Position numbers and translations under genes: made by a program. From a virus (lineage: Duplodnaviria; Caudoviricetes), in the IMG/VR virus record IMGVR_UViG_3300006929_000021, positions 1 to 52,863 of that record: 52,863 nucleotides of DNA. The stretch is one strand, 5' to 3'. The stretch's first letter is position 1. Each line of letters opens with the position of its first letter. Below, one piece after another: positions 3,705-12,936 of the stretch. The notes beneath the pieces were generated by a model, which was not told where the DNA came from, did not search any database, and worked only from the letters and a program-made list of their open reading frames with translations.

Positions 3705-3893
3705 TTACATATCCCTCAACTTATCCTCTAAATCAATAATTTCTCGCTCTGCATACGCCAAACCCTCTATAACTCCGCACATTTTACGGTATTCCTCCAT
3801 GTCTGACGCTGAGCCTACTGCCAAATGATCAGCAATTTCGTTCATTTGGCTTCTAATTCTCTTTTTAAGTAAAGATAAAACATCATCACCCAC
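3705..3893 (-). CDS. conserved small protein downstream of portal
   Basis: 62 aa, EEYRKMCGVIEGL motif; overlaps the portal stop codon. Confidence 0.7.
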   Translation of the reverse strand: MGDDVLSLLKKRIRSQMNEIADHLAVGSASDMEEYRKMCGVIEGLAYAEREIIDLEDKLRDM

Positions 3894-6393
3894 CTTTAGG
3901 CTCCTTTCCTTTTTCTTTTTCTGCTAATTCAGCCATAAATTTGTCTGTATCAACACCAAATTTAAATCCTTCAGCCTCTTGTTCGGCTTCAAACTTTTCT
4001 AAATCGGCTGCAAGCTTCTGTGTTTCCAAATTAACCTTGGCGGCCAACTCTTTTTCATCCATATCTATGCCTGCCACTGCTTTTTCCCGATCAAGATCAA
4101 GCTTAGCAGTATCTAATTGTTGTTTTGCTTGGTCAACTTGCTGTTTCCTTTGAACATCCATCTCACGAATATCAAGCTCACGCTCTCTTTGTTTCACAAT
4201 TGGATCTTCTTGCTGTGCTGCCATCTGCTCAGCCTGTGCTTGCTGCTGTTTCTTGCCCATCATTTGATCAGCAGCGTCGGCAATCATAACACTAAGTTGT
4301 TTTTCTATGTTCGGAGGTAGCGGTTCTCCAACTGGTGGAAGTGGTGCTCCAAGTTCTTCTTCTATCTGCCTACGGAATACAAATGCCAAGTGTTCACGAA
4401 CATGTGCATCCAACGCACCGCTTACTGCACCACCCGAAGGACTGTTCTGAACCTCCTGTGCAAGTTGCGGATCATTCTTAAGTGCCATATGAACTCGCAT
4501 ATGTGCTTCGTGATCCTGATATTCATACGCTTTAACAGGAGCAAGTGTAAGCATGTCTTGATTTTCTGTTACAGGATCTTTAGGTGGCACTTCTTCTTGG
4601 TTCGGAACCACCTTGTCAGCATTAGGTATACCTATTAGATCCATCATTTGACGATGAAGCAATGGCATATCATAAAGATTCGGAGCCTGTGCAGCCAATT
4701 GCAGTGCAGCCTGATATTGCATAATTCTTTGAGCCATGGTTGATGCATTAGGATCAGACACTGGCACAACATCTATGCGATCATCAAAGTCCTCAAGCTT
4801 AATTGCTTCACCCTCATCTGTTTCGTAGGGATAAGCGGGATCTGTATAGTCAGCAATTATTTCTGATAGTATTTTATATTCTTGCTTTAGGCTTGCATGT
4901 ATTCTCGCCTGAATAGCAGACTGCACCTTCATAGCTCTTTCCATGATTGCAAGAGTAGTTCCCACGGGAGCCTCTTGATTCATGTCTGCTACTTTAAGGT
5001 CGGCCATTGACGCAAAGCGTCTGCCTTCTTCGACGATATTACCCAGTAACTGATAAAGGACCGAACTAGGTTCCTTATAAGGAAGGAAGGTGATGTTGTC
5101 ACGAATCGCCCCGCCTGGGACATCAACGTCTCTAAACTCTCCTGGCATGATAGGCGTGTCATCGCCTTTGATTCTAAGTCCACGAGTTTTCAAACCTCCA
5201 GGTAGATTGGATAGTGTGCCCGCATCAACCAACTGTCTAAGTAAGCTGGTCGCAGATTTGGCTAATCCTCCAATCATGTGGATTAAGCCAAGGTTGTAGA
5301 ATCCGATTCCTGGAACGTAGCCGTAATGTACAAAGTGTTGTTTTTTCACTCTGTGCGGATCTTCTTCAGACCAATTCCTATAAATAGAAAGAACGGTGTC
5401 GCTGCCTTTATCAATCGTAATTACATATGGCAACGCAACCCCGTCTTCGTCCTCATATCCAGGTAAGTCTATATCGGCATGCATTTCAAGAAGTTGGTGT
5501 CGCTCATCATTTTCGTAAGACGGACGCACGCCTCCAATTTCATTGTATTTATCTGTAATAGAATTGTCTTCTATATTGGAGGGCGTTAGTTCTACATCCC
5601 GATAAAATCCACTAACCTGTAACTTTCTAATCTGATTAGTGCTACGATTCATTACGTGTGTATATCGTTCTGCATGTTGTAACTCTCCCTCATTGTACGC
5701 AACTACAAAGTCCTCAGCAGGAACGAACATAGAAGTAGGTCTGCCCAACGAAGGGTCGAAATAAATCTTACGAAATGCAGAACCAGCAAGAGGCAAACTA
5801 AAAAGTAGTTTTTCTGTTTCTGAGCGATACTCAGTCATTACCTCAATAAGTTGGTAATTTAAATATTCCTGAACACGCTTTGCTTGCTTTTCTCTTTCAG
5901 GAGTAAACTTGCCCCAAATATGAGTTTTGACTGGACCCTGTGCTGGCATAATCTCTTGAATAGTCTGGGCTTGAAATCGCACTACTGCCTCAGAAAGCAT
6001 TGGATGAAATACGCCACATGCTCCAGCCCATGGGGTTGTACGCTCTTCAATCTCCAAGCCTAACTGATCTAGCCCTTGTTCATAGCTTTGTTCCCAGTCA
6101 CCCCTGCTGGATTTATCGGATTCAAATTTTCCAACAAGTTCTGAACCAAGGCTTTGTAGTTCGCCTTCGTCTATAAAGTCAGCAAGATTGGAATCAAACG
6201 AATCCTCTTGCATCATCATATCAGCCATTGGATCAAAGTCGACCATCATGCCGCCATCATCCATTTCGACTAACAGTGATTCACCATCAGCCTCTTCTTC
6301 AGCAAGCGTCACTTCTTGGGCAATCTCTTCAGGACTTACACCAAGTTGTTCAAGCTCACTAATAATAGGTTCAATTGCTTTGTCTATCGCCAC
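3886..6393 (-). CDS. portal protein
   Basis: 835 aa following terL; PWAGACGVFHPMLSEAVVRFQA, LPLAGSAFRKIY and LRQLVDAGTLSNLP motifs; C-terminal coiled-coil barrel as in P22-like portals. Confidence 0.85.
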   Translation of the reverse strand: MAIDKAIEPIISELEQLGVSPEEIAQEVTLAEEEADGESLLVEMDDGGMMVDFDPMADMMMQEDSFDSNLADFIDEGELQSLGSELVGKFESDKSSRGDWEQSYEQGLDQLGLEIEERTTPWAGACGVFHPMLSEAVVRFQAQTIQEIMPAQGPVKTHIWGKFTPEREKQAKRVQEYLNYQLIEVMTEYRSETEKLLFSLPLAGSAFRKIYFDPSLGRPTSMFVPAEDFVVAYNEGELQHAERYTHVMNRSTNQIRKLQVSGFYRDVELTPSNIEDNSITDKYNEIGGVRPSYENDERHQLLEMHADIDLPGYEDEDGVALPYVITIDKGSDTVLSIYRNWSEEDPHRVKKQHFVHYGYVPGIGFYNLGLIHMIGGLAKSATSLLRQLVDAGTLSNLPGGLKTRGLRIKGDDTPIMPGEFRDVDVPGGAIRDNITFLPYKEPSSVLYQLLGNIVEEGRRFASMADLKVADMNQEAPVGTTLAIMERAMKVQSAIQARIHASLKQEYKILSEIIADYTDPAYPYETDEGEAIKLEDFDDRIDVVPVSDPNASTMAQRIMQYQAALQLAAQAPNLYDMPLLHRQMMDLIGIPNADKVVPNQEEVPPKDPVTENQDMLTLAPVKAYEYQDHEAHMRVHMALKNDPQLAQEVQNSPSGGAVSGALDAHVREHLAFVFRRQIEEELGAPLPPVGEPLPPNIEKQLSVMIADAADQMMGKKQQQAQAEQMAAQQEDPIVKQRERELDIREMDVQRKQQVDQAKQQLDTAKLDLDREKAVAGIDMDEKELAAKVNLETQKLAADLEKFEAEQEAEGFKFGVDTDKFMAELAEKEKGKEPKGG

Positions 6394-6457: not shown

Positions 6458-7948
6458 TTAATAATAATCTGCTTTTCTATTTAAAAGAAACTCTTCTTCC
6501 TCTTCATCGCTTGCTATCCTTATAAATCCTCCTTGACGAAACCTTAAAAGAGCTTGCGTAGAAGAGTCAACCAAGTCGTCGTGATCACCAGTCGGAAAGG
6601 CAGCAAACTCCTCAACTACCAATTCTGCCCATCTTGTTTTTGGTGCCCACACATGCCCAGAGGAGAATAAATCTGAAATCGCATTTACTCTAGCAATTTT
6701 ATCTTTACCCCTGCTGGGTACATACTCACCCACAGGTATACCCATGCGACGCAATTCAAATATCAATGGAGTCCCTGCAGCTTTAGCTTCTACAATAAAC
6801 GCATCAGGTTCGTACTCTTTATACATTTCATAAGCACGTGCCTTAAGATCAGGAAATTCTAATCTCTCCTGAAATGCATCTAAAAGAATAATACTTGATA
6901 TATTATCTTCATCTGTAAAAACCCCCCAGGTGGTACACGCACTATAGTCAGCAGTTTCCTTTGCAAGAAATGCAGTATCCCAAGATTGAATAATAAAATC
7001 ACAAGGGGGTGGCCGTTTCTGTGTCCACTCTTTCCACCACTCCCTTTTTATAATTGCACCTTCTTCTGACGAAGGATCTTGCTGATACTGGGCACTCCAC
7101 TTACCAATAGGTAGTTCTGCCTTCAGTGCTTCTAATTGGTCGAGTGGCCAAAAGCCAGGCCACAAAGATTTGCCACTAGGAAGTATGGCAGGAAATTCTA
7201 TAACCTCCCACTCATCACCACCCCTTTGGATAGATGACTTCATAATACTTCCCGTTAAATCTTTTTTTGACCAACGGGTCATTACCAAACATATCGCACC
7301 GCCAGGCTGTAGTCTTTGGCGAGGACCAGAGGTATACCACTCATATGTTTTGTCATATACCGAAGGATCGTTTAATGCAGCTTCCTGTTCAGAATGCGGG
7401 TCATCAACAATTAAGATATCTGCACCCTTACCTGTTACGGCACCACCTACACCAATAGCGAAATATTCTCCTTGCTTATTTGTACTCCATCTTCCCGCAG
7501 CCTTAGAGTCTGTACTAAGTGCAACATCTTTAAATATTTTTTGATAATCCTCTGAGCCAACAAGGTTACGAACCTTACGACCAAAGCCTACAGCAAGCTC
7601 CGCAGTATGTGCAGTCTGAATTACTTTTTTATCAGGAAACCTTCCAAGGTACCATGCTGGAAAAAGATGAGATGCAAACTCTGACTTTGTATGACGAGGA
7701 GGCATATTTACAATTAGCCTCTTCAGGGACCCGTCTGCAATTCTATTAAACGCATCTGCCATGACCTTGTGATGGTCACCTTCAATAAAGGCGGGCCAAA
7801 CTTCTTTTACAAAAGCAAGAAAGTCTGTGTGTGCAATGGTTCTTGTTCTGGCATCTGACAGTTCATCTAATAAAATAAGAACTTCTTTTCGGGTATCAGG
7901 TGCCAGTGTATCCAGCCGTTTGGTTATTGTGGCTAAATCTAGACTCAT
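6458..7948 (-). CDS. terL: terminase large subunit
   Basis: Walker A NMPPRHTKS, Walker B ILIVDDPH, coupling motif VMTRW, RNase H-like nuclease motifs SWDTA and HDDLVDS. Confidence 0.95.
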   Translation of the reverse strand: MSLDLATITKRLDTLAPDTRKEVLILLDELSDARTRTIAHTDFLAFVKEVWPAFIEGDHHKVMADAFNRIADGSLKRLIVNMPPRHTKSEFASHLFPAWYLGRFPDKKVIQTAHTAELAVGFGRKVRNLVGSEDYQKIFKDVALSTDSKAAGRWSTNKQGEYFAIGVGGAVTGKGADILIVDDPHSEQEAALNDPSVYDKTYEWYTSGPRQRLQPGGAICLVMTRWSKKDLTGSIMKSSIQRGGDEWEVIEFPAILPSGKSLWPGFWPLDQLEALKAELPIGKWSAQYQQDPSSEEGAIIKREWWKEWTQKRPPPCDFIIQSWDTAFLAKETADYSACTTWGVFTDEDNISSIILLDAFQERLEFPDLKARAYEMYKEYEPDAFIVEAKAAGTPLIFELRRMGIPVGEYVPSRGKDKIARVNAISDLFSSGHVWAPKTRWAELVVEEFAAFPTGDHDDLVDSSTQALLRFRQGGFIRIASDEEEEEFLLNRKADYY

Positions 7949-8175
7949 TAATCTATAACAGTTTGAAAATGATAAAAAATTATTTCAGCCTCTTTTCTTA
8001 GTTTTTCGGCAAGTTCTGTTTTGTTCTTCTTTGCTGCACGCTGAGACTCCATAAGCAGTTGACCATATCTGTGTAATTTATCAGAGGGTTTAGCCACGCC
8101 TGATTTTCCTCTCATTACGTGAGCGATTGCTTCCTTGTCTTTTTGCCTTCGTTTCTCTGAGATAGCTTTCGACAT
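7948..8175 (-). CDS. hypothetical protein
   Basis: 75 aa, basic; GGAGG RBS; stop overlaps the terL start. Confidence 0.55.
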   Translation of the reverse strand: MSKAISEKRRQKDKEAIAHVMRGKSGVAKPSDKLHRYGQLLMESQRAAKKNKTELAEKLRKEAEIIFYHFQTVID

Positions 8176-8494
8176 CCTTTACCTCCTCCGTTGCTAAGTC
8201 AACAACATACTGTGCAAGTTTATACCACTTATGACTATTACGATTATAACCTAATCCTTGAAGGTAGTTTTCCAAAATCTCATCAGCACTCTTTCCTATA
8301 TACTTTGCCTTGCCACTACTTTGTCTGGAAAAATATTTAGGAAAGTTTTCAATTAATGTTTCGGCTGTGTAGCCACGAGCTATGTAACCACTCCGATCAC
8401 GCATAGCAGCAATCTGGTAAGCTTCCACGGCCTCCGCAAGAACATAAAGAAGATCTTCTAACACTATTGGTTCAAAAACTTTTTCAGCCATCAA
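8090..8494 (-). CDS. hypothetical protein
   Basis: 134 aa ORF in the operon upstream of terL; overlaps both neighbours. Confidence 0.55.
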   Translation of the reverse strand: MMAEKVFEPIVLEDLLYVLAEAVEAYQIAAMRDRSGYIARGYTAETLIENFPKYFSRQSSGKAKYIGKSADEILENYLQGLGYNRNSHKWYKLAQYVVDLATEEVKDVESYLRETKAKRQGSNRSRNERKIRRG

Positions 8495-8711
8495 TTACAA
8501 GATCTTCTCGTTTACATTCAATCCATACGTGGGCACCACATGATAATGACTTTCCAGGAGAGTACACAAGTTTACTGGGTCCATTAATCTGAATTGAATC
8601 GGTGTATGTATTGTCCTTGTATGTTTTAATAGAAAACACAGGACGGGAGTCACTAGGGTTTTTTTTGTTGTATTTGATGTTGTGCTGATTTACATGTATT
8701 CGAGCCTTCAC
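8484..8711 (-). CDS. conserved phage hypothetical protein
   Basis: 75 aa; IHVNQHNI...GPS..VYSP..LSCGA.VWIE pattern that I recognise from aquatic phages; GGGAG RBS. Confidence 0.7.
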   Translation of the reverse strand: MKARIHVNQHNIKYNKKNPSDSRPVFSIKTYKDNTYTDSIQINGPSKLVYSPGKSLSCGAHVWIECKREDLVIDG

Positions 8712-8721
8712 AAAACACTCC

Positions 8722-8840
8722 CCTTAGTTAATATTATCTATTATTACCTATATAGATAATCTATACTAGGTAACTTAGACTTAAATATCTAGACTTATAA
8801 CCTAACCTAATGTTATTCTAGATAACTAAGTTAGTTATTA
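8722..8840. other. AT-rich non-coding tract with short palindromes
   Basis: Repeated CTAG/TTAG/CTAA words; ATTATCTAT..ATAGATAAT and TAACTAA-G-TTAGTTA inverted repeats. Confidence 0.5.
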
Positions 8841-9069
8841 TGGTGCCTGAGAAATGGTGTGAGAGAGAGAAGAGAGAGGTGTAAACATTAAATTTTTGCT
8901 GTAGGATGTGCAAAACAGTGTTTTATGGTATCGCCTCTCCCTACTCCTCAGCGGGGGGGACCACCCTACTGGGGTCACCAGCGAACCCAAAAAGCCCCCA
9001 AAAGCAAAAGCATGGAGCTACCCCTCCACCCCCAAAAAGCCCTCCCTCGCCCTGTTTTTTTTTCAACCC

Positions 9070-9512
9070 CCTTTCTTGCCCGATCATTCACCGACCAGTC
9101 CACTAGCACGACAACACACCTCCAACTCACCGTAGAGACAGGCGATACCATTTCTATCTATCTGTGATTTGACACCTTACTCAGCGTTAGAACACCCAAT
9201 GTTTAGCCCTTCGCCTGACTGAGCCATCCTTGATTTTAACGATGAAAAAAGATAGAAAATCTAGCCATTTTGTCTAGGCGGTGTAGCATACCTAGACAAA
9301 ATACCTAGACTGAAGCCCTAAAGGGTTTTCTATTTTGTTTCATAGTGAAAATCAAGAATAGTCAGCCGAAGGACCAAACATCGGGTGTTCTAGCGGGAGC
9401 AAGGTATAAAAATCCCAGATGGCTAGAAATAGCCTCTCCTCCTCCCCTACGACGAGTCGAAGATGTGTTGCCCCGCCAGCGGACCGTTCGGCAAATGATC
9501 GACCAAGAAAGG
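9070..9512 (-). repeat. ~440-nt imperfect inverted repeat (rod-like hairpin, G-U biased on minus strand); candidate ncRNA
   Basis: 9071-9135 aligns ungapped to the reverse complement of 9447-9511 (49/65 identical; 13 of 16 mismatches are G-U on the minus strand); pairing continues inward to a perfect 12-bp stem at 9267-9278/9291-9302. Confidence 0.9.
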
Positions 9513-9561
9513 CAGCAGCCCCCTTTTTTTTGTATATAAGTTAATAGCTTGAATACTCCGA

Positions 9562-9590
9562 TTAAGGGATTGCAATCCTTATACTATAAT
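9562..9590 (+). promoter_or_regulatory. putative sigma70 early promoter with palindrome in spacer
   Basis: TTAAGG-17 nt-TATAAT; the palindrome GGATTGCAATCC overlaps the spacer. Confidence 0.5.
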
Positions 9591-9596
9591 CCCCGT

Positions 9597-9930
9597 GATG
9601 GGATGATGATCTCTCCTGCTAGTTCCGAGGGGTGAGGCTCACCATCTACCACGAGTGGAAAGGTCTGCCTACTAATAGAGAGGAGATCAACCCTTCAGCC
9701 TCGTGGCAGGAGCGAACGCTAGTTCACGGTTCGCCTGTAAGCACGAGCATGGCCTATCCGTGAGGACGGACGTTGGGTTGGTCTCTATTAGATCTTGGTC
9801 GACAGCAGGTTACCAATCGCCTAACAAGTTTTGTTGTACCGTGTGGTGGTCACGTTAAAACCCACCCAGGCGATCAGACCACAAGGGTCTGGCCTGTTAC
9901 CTTTGCGGGGACGAAAGGTCCCCGAAGGAG
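9597..9930 (+). ncRNA. putative structured 5' leader / ncRNA
   Basis: Several nested stems read by eye (9672-9693/9775-9791; CTCGTG..CACGAG; TCCGT-GAGG-ACGGA; ATCGCCT/AGGCGAT; CAGACC/GGTCTG; CGGGGAC-GAAAG-GTCCCCG next to the RBS). Confidence 0.55.
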
Positions 9931-9938
9931 TAGTAACC

Positions 9939-10973
9939 ATGGCTAATACAGCCAAAGTAGGGTCCATCAGTTTCGACAATTACGTTAAAACTGTGGGAAG
10001 AAGCGTTGGACAGGCCGCTGCGGTCGAGGCTAAAACCGAGACACAGGCGGGCCACGATAAGGATAAGACTGTTCTTGCTGCCTTGAAAGGGGCGAGATCG
10101 CTTTCGGCTAAGATAGCGAAAGATCCAGATCGGAAAAACGCAGGAATCAACAGAGCACTCTGTGATTTCTACGATATCCAACGTAACACTGCTAGGGAAA
10201 CTAGGTACGCTGACTACGATGAGGAGTTGAGGCTTCACAACCTCAGCATTCCTGAAGTAGTCGAGGAGTTTGTATCTGGCAACACCAACGTTCTTAGGGG
10301 TGAGCAAGTTTTCAACTTGGCTAACACAACTAAGAAGGTTGCATCGGAAGCTAGGTCTAATGCTCAGTCAGCTGTTGATAGTGACGAGAGTCCAGTGATC
10401 CACTTCCATGAAGATGCGAAGCAGCAGACCCTTACAACCTATACTAGATACACGCCAGCACCATTGGCGAGTAAGAAGGAGTATGGGGCCTCTGGGAGAA
10501 ACCGTGTAAACACATACGTCGACCTGTATACGATGTGTGGATTCTTTCTTGATCCTAAGAGAGACACGGATGAGGTTGATTTCCTACTGGAACAGCTTAA
10601 TCCTGCTCTGACTTCTAAGAAGTCGAACAAGATGTTGCCTGTATCAGACCGTATGCAGGTTCTTATGAACCGTATGCGTGAAGTCAAGATCACGAAGAGT
10701 ACTATGCCGATAGCCACAGTCCTTGACGGTGAAGGTCATCGACACGTGCAGAATGCATACGAGAATCTTTCAGATTCTCAGCTGAAAGCATTGGGATTAT
10801 CCGCAAAGGTAGAGGAGGTTCCTTTGAACCAACTCCATTCGGACTTCTTGCAGGAGAAGAAGGAGAAGGCTCAAAGGGTGAAGCTTCTAACTCGTAATAT
10901 CAAGGTACTTGATATTGAATGCGGGTTAGAGGAACTACACATAGTCAAAGCTAACAGATACGCAAAGGATTAA
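9939..10973 (+). CDS. hypothetical early protein (344 aa)
   Basis: Long ORF; the ATG at 9939 has an AAGGAG RBS and is preferred over the TTG at 9831; no recognisable motif. Confidence 0.8.
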   Translation: MANTAKVGSISFDNYVKTVGRSVGQAAAVEAKTETQAGHDKDKTVLAALKGARSLSAKIAKDPDRKNAGINRALCDFYDIQRNTARETRYADYDEELRLHNLSIPEVVEEFVSGNTNVLRGEQVFNLANTTKKVASEARSNAQSAVDSDESPVIHFHEDAKQQTLTTYTRYTPAPLASKKEYGASGRNRVNTYVDLYTMCGFFLDPKRDTDEVDFLLEQLNPALTSKKSNKMLPVSDRMQVLMNRMREVKITKSTMPIATVLDGEGHRHVQNAYENLSDSQLKALGLSAKVEEVPLNQLHSDFLQEKKEKAQRVKLLTRNIKVLDIECGLEELHIVKANRYAKD

Positions 10974-11012
10974 GTCATCCTGGGTTAGCGTAGACTAAAG
11001 TTCCCTTCAACC

Positions 11013-11044
11013 GAGGGAGTGGGGACTCACCGCCCTGCTCCCTC
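11013..11044 (+). other. strong intergenic hairpin
   Basis: GAGGGAGTGGGG-8 nt-CCCTGCTCCCTC just before an AAGGAG RBS; no U-tract. Confidence 0.6.
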
Positions 11045-11059
11045 ACAAAGGAGTTAGTT

Positions 11060-11266
11060 ATGGCTACTGCAAATATAGTCAAAGAGTGTCCTTGGTGTGA
11101 AACGTCACATGTTGTTTGTGGCATTCCCATGAAGGAGTTTATCGACTACAAAACTCGCCCAGAAGCACTCATACAGGATGTTCTTCCTAGTCTAAGTGCG
11201 GATGCTCGTGAGGTAGTTAAGACGGGTATATGTCCCCCGTGTTGGGAGGATCACTTCAATGCATGA
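11060..11266 (+). CDS. small zinc-finger protein
   Basis: CPWC and CPPCW motifs; LIQDVLPSLSADARE..KTGIC pattern; AAGGAG RBS. Confidence 0.75.
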   Translation: MATANIVKECPWCETSHVVCGIPMKEFIDYKTRPEALIQDVLPSLSADAREVVKTGICPPCWEDHFNA

Positions 11267-11429
11267 TTTGAAGCCCTCCCAAAAGGTAACCAAATTGTTT
11301 CTGGCCCATGGCCTCGTTATCAAACGCTTTGAGAGACAAGTGGTTGTCTACAGTATAAAATCTGAAAGCACTAACCTTCAGGTTTTCAAAACCGTTCAGG
11401 AAGCGAGGACTTCCTGCGGTATCCTTTAG
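11259..11429 (+). CDS. small hypothetical protein (56 aa, not in ORF track)
   Basis: Hand-translated MHDLKPSQK...TSCGIL*; GGGAGG RBS 9 nt upstream. Confidence 0.4.
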   Translation: MHDLKPSQKVTKLFLAHGLVIKRFERQVVVYSIKSESTNLQVFKTVQEARTSCGIL

Positions 11430-11491
11430 TACACTTTACATGCATCACCTGCTCGTCTCTACAACGAGTAGGTGCTGCCAAGGAGATTGGT

Positions 11492-11716
11492 ATGAGACCG
11501 AGACGTAAGAAACATCTAGAAGTAAGCAGGACACTCTTCACGGTATACAAAATGATCGTGTCCCTGGAGCCGATGCCCGAAGACGATCCGAGGCATCCAA
11601 ACGGCCATGCAATGCGGAGATTTAAAGTTGCAGAAGCGTTTGTCAAGCTTGCCTTAGACGTCAGGCGAGAAGAGATCATTAACGATCATAAGGCAATTGT
11701 CAGGGAGGGAACATAA
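11492..11716 (+). CDS. hypothetical protein
   Basis: 74 aa; AAGGAG RBS. Confidence 0.65.
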   Translation: MRPRRKKHLEVSRTLFTVYKMIVSLEPMPEDDPRHPNGHAMRRFKVAEAFVKLALDVRREEIINDHKAIVREGT

Positions 11717-11717
11717 A

Positions 11718-11999
11718 ATGAGACTATCAAAAAAGCAACAGATAGTATTCATCAAAGGTGTTACCCGTGCATTAGTAGAACAGTATACTAGCCTTGATAA
11801 TCCTGGGTTTTGTTACACCTGTGGAAAGGAAAGAGATGGCTGTGAACCAGATGCCATCAAGTATGAATGTCCAAGCTGTGGTGCATCTGCGGTATATGGA
11901 CTTATGTACGCAGCAGAACATCCAGTTATGCGTACAGAGGATGGTAAAAGACATCTCAATAAGGCGATAGACCTTTATGAGAAAGAAAGAAACAGATAG
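11718..11999 (+). CDS. zinc-ribbon protein
   Basis: GFCYTCG..GCEPDA..YECPSCG..VYG; ATG at 11718 with GGAGG RBS. Confidence 0.75.
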   Translation: MRLSKKQQIVFIKGVTRALVEQYTSLDNPGFCYTCGKERDGCEPDAIKYECPSCGASAVYGLMYAAEHPVMRTEDGKRHLNKAIDLYEKERNR

Positions 12000-12011
12000 G
12001 GTAACCTGACC

Positions 12012-12044
12012 GAGGTGCGTGGGTTCAACTCCCACCACCTCACA
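12012..12044 (+). ncRNA. tRNA/tmRNA-like acceptor + T-arm minihelix
   Basis: GAGGTG-C-GTGGG-TTCAACT-CCCAC-CACCTC-ACA: 6-bp stem stacked on a 5-bp T-stem with a 7-nt TTCAACT loop; no D or anticodon arm. Confidence 0.5.
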
Positions 12045-12157
12045 TACACGGTAACCTGCTGAACTGTACTAACCTAGAGTTCCTTTGGCACTTTAGGCAT
12101 CCTAAGACTAAGGGCCTCACGCATTAGTGATCGGGGGGGAGGAGTCTGATACTGTTG

Positions 12158-12235
12158 CCCCACCCCACACCCCCCACACCCCGCCACCCACCCCGCCCAA
12201 CCACCCACCCCACCCCACCCCAAAGCCCCGCCCCC
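12158..12235 (-). repeat. C-run tract (G-quadruplex potential on minus strand)
   Basis: More than 10 runs of 3-6 C separated mostly by short (1-5 nt) linkers. Confidence 0.7.
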
Positions 12236-12383
12236 TGGTTCGGTCGCCCGACAAGGGGAAAAATTTTCCCCCACTAGTGTATCTCTGTAGCTAGTATCTA
12301 TTTAGCTAGGGTACGGGTACGATCGGGTCGAGGGGTTGACAAAATACCACCCTAGAAACTGGTTCGGTCGTCTGGTTCGGTCG
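12235..12383 (+). repeat. three copies of CTGGTTCGGTCG
   Basis: Exact 12-mers at 12235, 12359 and 12372. Confidence 0.8.
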
Positions 12384-12462
12384 TCACCATGAGGTTCAGC
12401 TACAGGGGGAAAAATTTTCTCCCCTATTAAAACCCAGTTTAGCACTTAAACCTAATGGTAAG

Positions 12463-12936
12463 TTACGCCTCTGCTCCGAATAAGATACCCAGCTTCTCAA
12501 GCAACTCCTTCTCTACATCTTCGGGTGACCTATGCTCAAACGTGACATGGGTACTCTCGTCGAACAACCCACCCGTTTTACCTAGTAGCTCAAGTGCCCT
12601 CACTCTGGTCGCTGCTGGGTTCCTATCATTGATGGCCTCATCCTGCAACTTCTGCATAATCCAGTCGTTGCTTAGCTTTTGATGGGCCTTGTGTGCAGAC
12701 CTAGTCTGTACCTTCAGCGATTCAATTGCCTCTTTCACCTTCGGATTCTTTGCGAGTGCAGATGCTTCATTGTTCACGACGTTGTCGCTCATCTTCGCAG
12801 TGTTGTACGCCTTACGATAGGCCTCACTAAAGCTATCGCCTTCAGCTACAAAGCCTGCAAAAGCAGACTGTTTCGGGGTCATGGTATCGCCATTAGACAT
12901 AATAGATAGGGTACCATGACGAATTTCGTATGTCAA
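12463..12936 (-). CDS. terminase small subunit-like protein
   Basis: MTPKQSAFA..SEAYRKAY..ASALAKNPKV HTH-like N-terminus and RVRALELLGK motif; the start may be ATG 12900 or 12882. Confidence 0.75.
   Translation of the reverse strand: MTYEIRHGTLSIMSNGDTMTPKQSAFAGFVAEGDSFSEAYRKAYNTAKMSDNVVNNEASALAKNPKVKEAIESLKVQTRSAHKAHQKLSNDWIMQKLQDEAINDRNPAATRVRALELLGKTGGLFDESTHVTFEHRSPEDVEKELLEKLGILFGAEA

What the first reader, a model, noticed from the sequence alone, without database searches (positions are those of the whole stretch)
9070..9512. ~440-nt rod-like hairpin with strand-specific G-U wobble bias between terS and terL
Seen: the non-coding interval folds back on itself over almost its whole length. 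In the outer 65 nt (9071-9135 vs 9447-9511) the alignment is ungapped, with 49 Watson-Crick pairs and 16 mismatches. Thirteen of those mismatches (8 A/G, 5 C/T) become G-U pairs on the minus strand and none on the plus strand, so 62/65 positions pair. Pairing continues at about 9150-9260 vs 9325-9432 and ends in a perfect 12-bp apical stem with a small side hairpin. Inference: a neutrally decaying inverted duplication should not show this one-sided bias, so a single-stranded minus-sense molecule is probably under selection to fold. It lies on the terminase-coding strand. Possible roles are a packaging-associated RNA (cf. phi29 pRNA), a long dsRNA decoy or ligand for RNA-sensing defences (cf. 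the terminase-derived cabRNA that activates staphylococcal CBASS), an RNase III substrate, or an ssDNA hairpin origin/promoter (cf. Frpo). I do not recognise it as a known family.
Basis: partly seen in the sequence, partly recalled or inferred. Interest (0 to 1): 0.88.

Follow-up and report, generated by a model that had tools for sequence, protein, structure and literature searches.

The report
Giant conserved RNA-type hairpin in marine phage
A small group of uncultured marine phages keeps a 450-500-base sequence that folds into one long rod only on the strand of the packaging genes, which points to an undescribed long double-stranded RNA of unknown job sitting between the early and late genes.

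Summary
Window 9066-9516 folds into one rod: minus strand -269.7 kcal/mol (z -19.6), plus strand -192.0. The minus strand has 28 G-U pairs against 3 A.C mismatches.

The rod is not an assembly artefact. It occurs in six other contigs and in independent Logan contigs.

There are three diverged sequence types. All keep the rod and the same strand bias: 35:1 in L085 and 26:7 in L004. Of the 121 inner pairs, 25 changed on both sides; 0 of 500 shuffles reach that.

A terminator-like hairpin follows the rod on the minus strand in both lineages, without sequence homology.

"Between terS and terL" is only loosely right. The rod lies in the divergent gap between the late operon (small ORFs, terL, portal) and a plus-strand early cassette.

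Tests that came back negative:
- No Rfam family matches.
- No reverse transcriptase is in the record.
- There are no extra copies and no genome hits.
- No RNA data are available.

Best reading is a late-strand rod-shaped RNA of about 200 bp, a terminated leader or ncRNA and probable RNase III target. An ssDNA role is not excluded. The scan has noted comparable giant phage hairpins on other DNA.

The parts
9066..9516 (-). Rod-like hairpin with about 193 pairs, 28 of them G-U. The 5' arm runs 9516 to about 9330 and the 3' arm from about 9250 to 9066.
9253..9309 (-). Sequence-conserved apex: 95% identical to the L004 type, while the rod as a whole is about 70% identical. It has a 6-bp stem, a 14-bp stem and a 10-nt loop.
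9312..9329 (-). Small side hairpin that makes a three-way junction below the apex. In the L004 type it is replaced by a longer branch of different sequence at the same place.
9132..9151 (-). Invariant stretch in the 3' arm, containing AUGGUAUCGCC. It is the least well paired part of the rod.
8925..8944 (-). Downstream segment that is 90% complementary (20 nt) to 9132-9151. A 12-nt perfect version is kept in L004. It opens a 35-nt block that is identical in both lineages.
9012..9029 (-). Terminator-like hairpin plus U-rich tail, about 40 nt behind the rod. L004 has a different GC-rich terminator about 10 nt behind its rod.
9055..9063 (.). T9 run (A9 in the RNA sense) flanking the base of the rod. 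It is kept in the L004 type.
9524..9531 (.). T8 run (A8 in the RNA sense) flanking the other end of the rod.
9533..9538 (-). TATATA (TATAAA in L004), 7-10 nt before the rod: a weak candidate -10 box for the minus-strand transcript. No -35 box was found.
   Evidence: the scan lists no sigma-70-type site here
8715..8945 (-). Conserved block upstream of the late operon: AT-rich, with many CTAG-containing palindromes. It is also found in 11 more distant terL relatives that lack the rod.
9939..10973 (+). Divergent neighbour gene, a 344-aa orphan protein. It is found together with the rod in every contig that holds it.

Best explanation
The element is a gene for, or the leader part of, a highly structured RNA read on the late (terminase-coding) strand. 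A transcript that starts in the roughly 70-bp gap between the rod and the plus-strand early promoter folds into one imperfect duplex of about 190-215 bp. The duplex is capped by a sequence-conserved three-way-junction apex. The transcript ends, at least partly, at an intrinsic terminator 10-40 nt behind the rod, just upstream of the conserved control block of the late/packaging operon.

I take it to be a terminated leader or stand-alone ncRNA of the early-to-late switch. The long duplex makes it an obvious target for a double-strand-specific RNA-binding protein, RNase III first of all, and the conserved apex would be the part recognised specifically. The many G-U pairs let the RNA stay paired while the two DNA arms are only 69% alike, which would spare the phage a long DNA palindrome.

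**Shown:** the fold, the strand bias, the covariation, the single copy, and the fixed position.

**Inferred:** that it is transcribed, where the RNA starts and ends, RNase III cleavage, and any regulatory effect.
For: - **Strand asymmetry in all three versions.** Window -269.7 vs -192.0; L085 -306.0 vs -186.3; L004 type -315.6 vs -262.2 kcal/mol.
- **G-U pairs against A.C mismatches.** 28:3, 35:1 and 26:7.
- **Direction of change between lineages.** Transitions at Watson-Crick pairs went 15 to G-U and 1 to A.C (window vs L004), 9:1 (window vs L085) and 25:3 (L085 vs L004).
- **Remaining mismatches are purine-purine on this strand.** 10 of 17 are G.G or A.G.
- **Covariation.** 93.5% of cells are paired. 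25 of 121 pairs changed on both sides, which 0 of 500 shuffles reach; slid controls give 2-6. The rung alignment of the whole rod gives 19 double and 15 single changes among 168 pair-on-pair rungs.
- **Base composition.** The rod strand has a keto (G+U) excess: G 27, U 29, A 24, C 20%. The neighbouring late coding strand is purine-rich: A 31, G 25. Regional skew therefore does not explain the bias.
- **Terminators.** Terminator-like hairpins follow the rod on the minus strand in both lineages, with no sequence homology between them.
- **Plus strand is not a terminator.** On the plus strand 13 unpaired bases separate the stem from the T run.
- **No conserved reading frame.** tblastx finds only the apex, which is nearly identical as DNA.
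- **Co-occurrence.** 5 of 5 metagenome loci that encode the neighbour protein carry the rod.
Against: - No RNA evidence exists.
- No sigma-70-type promoter is found upstream on the minus strand: the scan lists 3 sites in 8400-10000, no more than shuffles give (2.6 +/- 1.6), and none lies at 9517-9600. The host and its promoter type are unknown.
- DNA energy parameters show the same strand asymmetry (-139.9 vs -100.0). Folding alone therefore cannot tell RNA from single-stranded DNA.
- Only three diverged versions (four distinct sequences) exist, so the covariation rests on few independent events. Some replaced arm segments could have changed in one step by intrastrand template switching.
- The window's terminator is modest: 6 pairs, 3 of them G-C.
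- Relatives with 80-88% identical terL manage without the rod.
Confidence: 0.5

Rival explanations
1. A single-stranded DNA hairpin of the minus strand is the functional form. It would be a replication start, priming or loading signal, or a packaging-related site, at the early/late divergence point. G.T wobbles would then be tolerated in DNA.
For: - The same asymmetry appears with DNA parameters: -139.9 vs -100.0 kcal/mol.
- The rod sits at a local minimum of cumulative GC skew, where gene orientation switches.
- It lies next to an AT-rich block full of short palindromes.
- The phage has its own DnaB-like helicase, RusA, a Sak annealing protein and a PD-(D/E)XK nuclease.
Against: - A double-stranded DNA tailed phage has no obvious stage in which 450 bases of one defined strand are free.
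- G.T pairs weaken a DNA hairpin, so their high number (14-18% of pairs) has no evident benefit for a DNA structure. It does fit an RNA that must avoid a DNA palindrome.
- Transcription terminators placed just behind the rod on the same strand are RNA-level signals.
- The GC-skew minimum is explained by gene orientation alone.
Confidence: 0.2
2. A trans-acting long double-stranded RNA made to engage host proteins. It could be a decoy or sponge for RNase III or for an RNA-sensing defence, or a precursor cut into small RNAs. It would not be a cis-acting leader.
For: - The structural evidence is the same as for the best explanation.
- The terminator right behind the rod would give a discrete RNA of about 520-550 nt.
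- The sequence-conserved apex suggests a specific binding partner.
- A phage RNA of similar length is known to be sensed by a bacterial cyclase (abstract of PMC10686824 in the listing).
Against: - There are no expression data and no known bacterial sensor of long perfect dsRNA to point to.
- No target of the apical loop exists elsewhere in the record: 1 match, itself, with up to 3 mismatches.
- The 11-nt match to the start of terS is within chance. The rod has 18 matches of 11 nt to the genome, where shuffles give 11.2 on average and 44 at most.
Confidence: 0.2
3. The rod has no function of its own. It would be a decaying inverted duplication or a selfish palindromic (MITE-like) insert, and its bias would come from strand-asymmetric mutation.
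For: - T runs flank both ends, and short direct repeats (CAACCCCCTTTCTT and CAGCCCCCTTTTTT) lie at the ends. These could be read as a target duplication.
- The terS-terL interval is variable among relatives.
Against: - There is one copy in the record.
- The apex has 0 hits in genomes of 185,579 species and occurs only at the same locus in relatives.
- Pairing is kept through about 30% sequence divergence, with 25 of 121 pairs doubly changed.
- Biases of 28:3 and 35:1 are far beyond the local skews (GC skew -0.07 at 9001-10000).
- The bias is G+U, not the purine excess of the neighbouring coding strand.
Confidence: 0.07

Closest known systems
RNase III processing hairpins between genes of T7-group phages (R0.3, R1.1 and others)
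   Same: Both are intergenic, on the strand of the transcript, and form an imperfect double-stranded RNA stem interrupted by small internal loops. Both are phage-encoded and near control regions. As DNA they are palindromes that can be a liability (passages of PMC11707656).
   Different: The T7 sites are tens of bases long (a 79-nt fragment carries one), whereas this rod is 450-500 nt. There is one copy rather than several per genome. It has a conserved three-way-junction apex. Cleavage is untested.
Lambda late promoter PR' with its short terminated leader ('6S' transcript) ahead of the late genes (recalled knowledge)
   Same: The order is the same: promoter gap, then a structured non-coding leader, then an intrinsic terminator, then the late/packaging genes.
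   Different: The leader here is more than twice as long and forms a single rod. No Q-like antiterminator or qut-like site was identified, and the promoter was not found.
cabRNA of staphylococcal phages (PMC10686824; only the listing's start of the abstract was seen)
   Same: Both are structured phage RNAs associated with the terminase region. The size, recalled as about 400 nt, is of the same order.
   Different: [quoted passage not shown] This element is non-coding, 1.1 kb from terL and 2.9 kb from terS. It belongs to an unrelated phage group, and no link to a cyclase is known.
Long hairpin RNAs and pre-miRNA-like inverted repeats of eukaryotes (recalled knowledge)
   Same: Both have hundreds of base pairs in one fold-back, with G-U pairs and small bulges confined to the transcribed strand.
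   Different: No Dicer/Argonaute-type pathway for such RNAs is known in bacteria, and nothing here shows that small RNAs are produced.
Other giant phage hairpins noted by this scan (e1-5947462, e1-5325122, e1-6040549)
   Same: These are very long imperfect fold-backs in non-coding gaps before gene clusters of uncultured phages, with mismatch patterns that favour one strand.
   Different: There is no sequence relation. Unlike e1-5947462, this one has diverged relatives that allow a covariation test. Unlike e1-6040549, this record holds no reverse transcriptase.

Membership tests
phi29-type packaging RNA (pRNA) | Match to the curated RNA family. That Rfam holds one is recalled. | tested here: not met
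   No Rfam family reaches its gathering score in the window. In 8400-12600 at E up to 5 there are only two weak, unrelated hits.
phi29-type packaging RNA (pRNA) | An RNA of about 120-174 nt that forms a ring on the connector by loop-loop pairing (recalled). | not testable with these tools
   The rod is 450-500 nt. The phage has ordinary terS and terL. Ring formation cannot be computed here.
cabRNA (CBASS-activating phage RNA) | [quoted passage not shown] | tested here: not met
   The element lies in non-coding DNA at 9066-9516. terL ends at 7948 and terS starts at 12463.
cabRNA (CBASS-activating phage RNA) | Binds and activates a CD-NTase. | not testable with these tools
   The host is unknown and no assay is possible.
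T7-type RNase III site | Double-stranded RNA stem of two or more helical turns on the transcribed strand. | tested here: met
   The minus-strand fold has 193 pairs.
T7-type RNase III site | Cleaved by RNase III within a polycistronic transcript. | not testable with these tools
   No RNA runs hold the stretch.
Terminated late leader (lambda PR'-tR' type) | Intrinsic terminator between the leader and the late genes. | tested here: met
   Terminator-like sites lie at 9029 to 9012 (window) and 8036 to 8019 (L004), on the late strand. These are pattern matches only.
Terminated late leader (lambda PR'-tR' type) | Promoter directly upstream, plus an antiterminator protein. | tested here: inconclusive
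   No sigma-70-type site was found at 9517-9600 on the minus strand. Pfam and PHROGs scans of 30 ORFs name no antiterminator. Many ORFs remain unnamed.
Retron msr-msd | A reverse transcriptase gene in the element or genome. | tested here: not met
   PF00078 gives 0 matches at E up to 1 in the 52.8-kb record, which is 89% complete. The neighbouring 344-aa protein has no Pfam or PHROGs family.
MITE or other palindromic mobile repeat | Many dispersed copies. | tested here: not met
   There is one copy in the record. The 26-nt apex has 0 hits in 185,579 species genomes. In IMG/VR it occurs only in a syntenic relative.
Protelomerase target (telRL-type palindrome) | Near-perfect dyad symmetry of the duplex DNA. 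| tested here: not met
   The arms are 69% identical as DNA. 16 of 65 outer positions are mismatched.
Frpo/ssi single-stranded DNA promoter | -35 and -10 boxes formed by the folded single strand, and a single-stranded DNA stage. | tested here: inconclusive
   One promoter-like match lies inside the rod (minus strand, 9276 to 9249, 9 of 12), no more than shuffles give. No ssDNA stage is known for this phage type.

The most novel reading that the evidence does not exclude
The phage deliberately makes a roughly 200-bp double-stranded RNA as an effector. It would be either a ligand or decoy that occupies a host dsRNA-binding nuclease or an RNA-sensing defence, or a precursor diced into small RNAs that act on phage or host messages. 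That would be a long-hairpin-RNA pathway in a bacterium-phage system.
Probability: 0.15. Interest if true: 0.9.

Novelty: new variant of a known kind. Interest (0 to 1): 0.63.

Why it matters
Structured hairpins between phage genes are familiar. A single fold-back of about 200 base pairs, kept by compensatory change and by a strictly one-sided wobble pattern, is far outside the usual size. It implies that a bacterial virus needs a long double-stranded RNA, or less likely a long DNA hairpin, at the switch between early and late genes.

If it is RNA, several questions follow:
- How does such a duplex survive or use RNase III?
- Do hosts sense it?
- Do phages use G-U pairs to hide a palindrome from DNA-level surveillance such as the palindrome-triggered Lamassu system (PMC11707656)?

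The scan has now met several such giant hairpins in unrelated phages. This is the one with relatives good enough for a covariation test, so it is a good entry point for experiments.

Tried and rejected
- **Neighbour protein in viral contigs.** The single protein found nothing. The alignment found only the two L004-type contigs.
- **Neighbour protein in genome contigs.** No relative was found.
- **Loci around the 75-aa protein.** 80 loci were scanned. None has the rod. 3 of 80 (L023, L033, L035) have long hairpins without strand bias, in unrelated large contigs.
- **Loci L183-L264 (terL relatives plus two chance hits).** 82 loci were scanned.
  - Only the two L004-type contigs score like the window (73.4).
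  - Ten others have short or partial hairpins scoring 25-38.
  - Folding showed these are not rods.
- **Sliding 240-nt folds upstream of terL.** The run stopped for time after 48 loci. The most stable window favoured the terL-sense strand in 29 and the other strand in 19, so there is no general rule.
- **Loose palindrome pattern.** It gave 94 mostly chance loci.
- **First inverted-repeat scan with blastn.** It missed even the window's own rod and was dropped.
- **Expression.** No RNA holder is listed among 23 runs. Contigs of 3 of 4 DNA runs laid cover the stretch; X13 gave nothing.
- **Motif AGTCTAGRTATTT.** It is shared by the apex and the late block: 2 exact copies, but 5 matches at up to 2 mismatches against 3.1 expected. 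That is not significant.
- **GGCGATACCAT at the start of terS.**
  - It is striking at first: 3 exact copies against 0.01 expected.
  - However, 11-nt matches between the rod and the genome are common by chance.
  - I therefore do not build on it.
- **Structure of the 344-aa neighbour.**
  - The second was usable, with pLDDT 72.9.
  - Foldseek found nothing at E up to 0.001 in PDB or BFVD.
  - VIA-align gave only generic helical matches, with Z up to 8.4.
  - The ESM Atlas gave no usable hit.
- **Literature.**
  - Three searches gave no description of such an element.
  - I read passages of PMC11707656 only.
  - The other papers were seen only as listings.
  - Supplements were not requested.

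Full report
**What is there.**
- The window is an IMG/VR virus record of 52,863 bases, linear and estimated 89% complete.
- Positions 9066-9516 fold back on themselves almost completely.
- As RNA, the minus strand of 9060-9525 reaches -269.7 kcal/mol. Dinucleotide shuffles give -139.9 +/- 6.6, so z is -19.6. The plus strand reaches -192.0, z -14.8.
- Over the whole rod the minus-strand fold has 193 pairs, 28 of them G-U, and 3 A.C single mismatches. The plus-strand fold has 169 pairs, 6 G-U and 12 A.C.
- The rod ends in a three-way junction: a 3-bp side hairpin, a 6-bp stem and a 14-bp stem with a 10-nt loop.
- My G-U-tolerant scan finds no second such hairpin in the record. The only other self-match is the rod against its own reverse strand, at 69% identity.

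**Where it lies.**
- terL is at 6458-7948(-), the portal gene at 3886-6393(-) and terS at 12463-12936(-).
- Between terS and terL there are 4.5 kb, not one spacer.
  - Three small minus-strand ORFs lie at 7948-8711.
  - A conserved AT-rich block lies at 8715-8945.
  - The rod comes next.
  - Then a roughly 70-bp gap.
  - Then a plus-strand unit that starts with a long leader and a 344-aa orphan gene (ATG at 9939), followed by further small plus-strand ORFs up to about 12000.
- The rod is therefore in the divergent gap between the late/packaging operon and a plus-strand cassette.
- The rest of the record is an ordinary tailed dsDNA phage. It has a DnaB-like helicase, RusA, a PD-(D/E)XK nuclease, a Sak annealing protein and a C5 methylase.
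- Its terL is 55-59% identical to those of pelagiphages HTVC027P and HTVC023P, and 46% to those of some cyanophages.
- The host is unknown.

**It is real DNA, and it is conserved as a structure.**
- The neighbour protein has only a handful of relatives: 4 clusters in 5.8 billion proteins and 6 representatives in 1.8 billion.
- All 5 metagenome loci that encode it carry a rod at the same place. So do two IMG/VR contigs.
- Logan contigs from three further DNA runs span the stretch. A chimeric assembly is therefore excluded.
- There are three sequence types:

| Type | Contigs | Identity to window rod | Note |
|---|---|---|---|
| Window type | window, L086 | 99.8% | |
| L085 type | L085 | 90% | Middle part differs |
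| L004 type | L004, L087, L089, L183 | about 70% over the alignable core | Outer arm segments replaced outright; 507 nt long |

- Every type folds into one rod and always better on the terminase strand:
  - L085: -306.0 vs -186.3.
  - L004 type: -315.6 vs -262.2.
- G-U pairs against A.C mismatches are 35:1 (L085) and 26:7 (L004). Binomial p values are 1e-9 and 1e-3. They are not independent of the window's 5e-6.
- Many G-U pairs are lineage-specific. Where a Watson-Crick pair in one lineage differs by a single transition in another, the outcome is G-U on this strand 15 times and A.C once (window vs L004). The other comparisons give 9:1 and 25:3.

**Covariation.**
- On a plain MAFFT alignment of the inner 311 nt, RNAalifold predicts 121 pairs.
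- 93.5% of cells are paired.
- 25 pairs have changes on both sides. Shuffled partners give 13.5 +/- 2.2, and 0 of 500 shuffles reach 25. Partners slid by 1-3 columns give 2-6.
- A rung-by-rung alignment of whole rods, which is fitted to the structure and so leans towards it, gives for window vs L004 168 pair-on-pair rungs: 134 unchanged, 15 changed on one side and 19 changed on both.
- The well-aligned base of the rod shows single-pair compensations such as G-C to U-A and U-A to C-G. Not all the change is wholesale replacement of arm segments.
- By contrast the 57-nt apex is 95% identical across types.
- An 11-nt stretch of the 3' arm (AUGGUAUCGCC) is invariant although poorly paired.

**RNA or DNA?**
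- Folding cannot decide, because DNA parameters give -139.9 vs -100.0.
- Four points favour RNA.
  1. In both lineages a terminator-like hairpin with a U-rich tail follows the rod on the same strand, 10-40 nt behind it. The two terminators are unrelated in sequence. That is conservation of a transcription signal by position.
  2. On the plus strand the T run is separated from the stem by 13 unpaired bases. The rod is therefore not simply a plus-strand terminator.
  3. G-U pairs make up 14-18% of pairs.
     - In RNA they cost little, and they lower the DNA-level symmetry to 69%.
     - That makes sense if a long DNA palindrome is harmful. Palindromic phage DNA, RNase III sites included, triggers a Lamassu defence in Vibrio (passages of PMC11707656).
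     - In a DNA hairpin the G.T pairs would only weaken the structure.
  4. The strand has a G+U excess, unlike the purine excess of the adjacent coding strand. Regional mutation skew is therefore not the cause.
- Three points count against RNA.
  - No promoter of sigma-70 type is found upstream.
  - There is only a TATATA/TATAAA box 7-10 nt before the rod.
  - There are no RNA data.

**What it is not.**

| Candidate | Result |
|---|---|
| Any Rfam family | No match |
| Retron | No reverse transcriptase in the record |
| Mobile repeat | One copy; apex absent from genomes of 185,579 species |
| Protelomerase-type palindrome | Arms too unlike |
| Protein-coding | No conserved reading frame |
| cabRNA | cabRNA comes from the terminase genes themselves (listing abstract); this element does not |

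**Context in relatives.**
- Phages with 80-88% identical terL lack the rod. They share the late block 8715-8945, which 11 further loci match, including the motif TTGCACATCCTAC.
- In L190 the architecture is parallel: terS, two strong hairpins, an unrelated 322-aa gene on the other strand, a divergent gap, the late block, then terL.
- The gap in L190 is also unusually structured (z -8.9 and -6.8), but as several hairpins.
- The position is thus a structured control region in the wider group. The single giant rod is the version of one small clade.

**Most likely mechanism.**
- A late-strand transcript begins in the gap at about 9520-9540, folds into the rod and largely ends at the terminator.
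- The product is a terminated leader or free ncRNA of roughly 520-550 nt, directly upstream of the late operon's control block.
- A duplex of this length should be bound and cut by RNase III. The conserved apex and the invariant, loosely paired 3'-arm stretch are the candidates for specific contacts.
  - That stretch has a 20-nt, 90% complement at 8925-8944.
  - The complement is kept in L004.
- Whether the RNA acts in cis (read-through, stability or timing of late genes) or in trans (decoy, sponge or small-RNA precursor) is open.
- My odds:

| Reading | Odds |
|---|---|
| RNA under selection | about 0.7 |
| The specific leader/ncRNA reading | about 0.5 |
| ssDNA element | about 0.2 |
| Functionless or selfish repeat | under 0.1 |

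**Novelty and verdict.**
- No paper found in three searches describes such an element.
- It is a new, extreme variant of a known kind: structured intergenic phage hairpins on the transcript strand.
- Earlier notes of this scan record similar giants in unrelated phages. This one has the best comparative support.

Noticed in passing
window 9793-9938 (+): The roughly 145 nt just before the ATG of the 344-aa gene are 91% identical to the L004 type, while the coding sequence is only 74% identical. Several stems show loop or compensating changes. This is a candidate structured 5' leader, and no Rfam family matches it.
   Followed up: partly
window 9677-9795: A 119-nt stretch in the plus-strand leader is present in the window and L085. 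It is absent from the near-identical L086, from a Logan contig of run X6 and from the L004 type. It is an indel polymorphism inside the leader.
   Followed up: partly
window 8925-8935(-), 9141-9151(+), 12881-12891(-): GGCGATACCAT occurs three times exactly (0.01 expected). The third copy covers codons 4-7 of terS, and L087 and L089 have the same three copies. However, 11-nt matches between the rod and the genome are common by chance: 18 seen, 11 expected.
   Followed up: yes
window 8715-8945: The block before the late operon is AT-rich and packed with CTAG-containing short palindromes, and it carries the motif TTGCACATCCTAC. It is conserved in 11 more distant terL relatives that lack the rod. 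It is a likely late promoter or operator region.
   Followed up: partly
L190 3600-3800 and 4860-5330 (same in L189): A relative with 87% identical terL has two near-perfect hairpins of about 25 bp right after terS (-146.9 vs -116.1 kcal/mol, favouring the terL strand). Its divergent gap before the late block is also highly structured (z -8.9).
   Followed up: partly
L252, L253, L257, L260, L262, about 2.1-2.5 kb upstream of terL: Phages with 66-67% identical terL share an outer stem of about 30 bp that encloses about 230 nt of purine-rich, weakly structured sequence. This is a different inverted-repeat-bounded element.
   Followed up: partly
L023 1669-2132; L033 and L035 1028-1486: Unrelated large phage contigs hold hairpins with arms of about 125-130 nt and no strand bias (scores 73 vs 78).
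   Followed up: no
window 9939-10973 (+): The 344-aa neighbour is an orphan: 6 representatives in 1.8 billion proteins and no Pfam or PHROGs family. The model has pLDDT 72.9, with no fold match beyond generic helical bundles.
   Followed up: yes
window 12018-12035 (+): An 18-nt partial match to the 3' end of the tmRNA model (16.6 bits, E 0.0008, far below the gathering score). ARAGORN finds no tRNA or tmRNA in the window.
   Followed up: no
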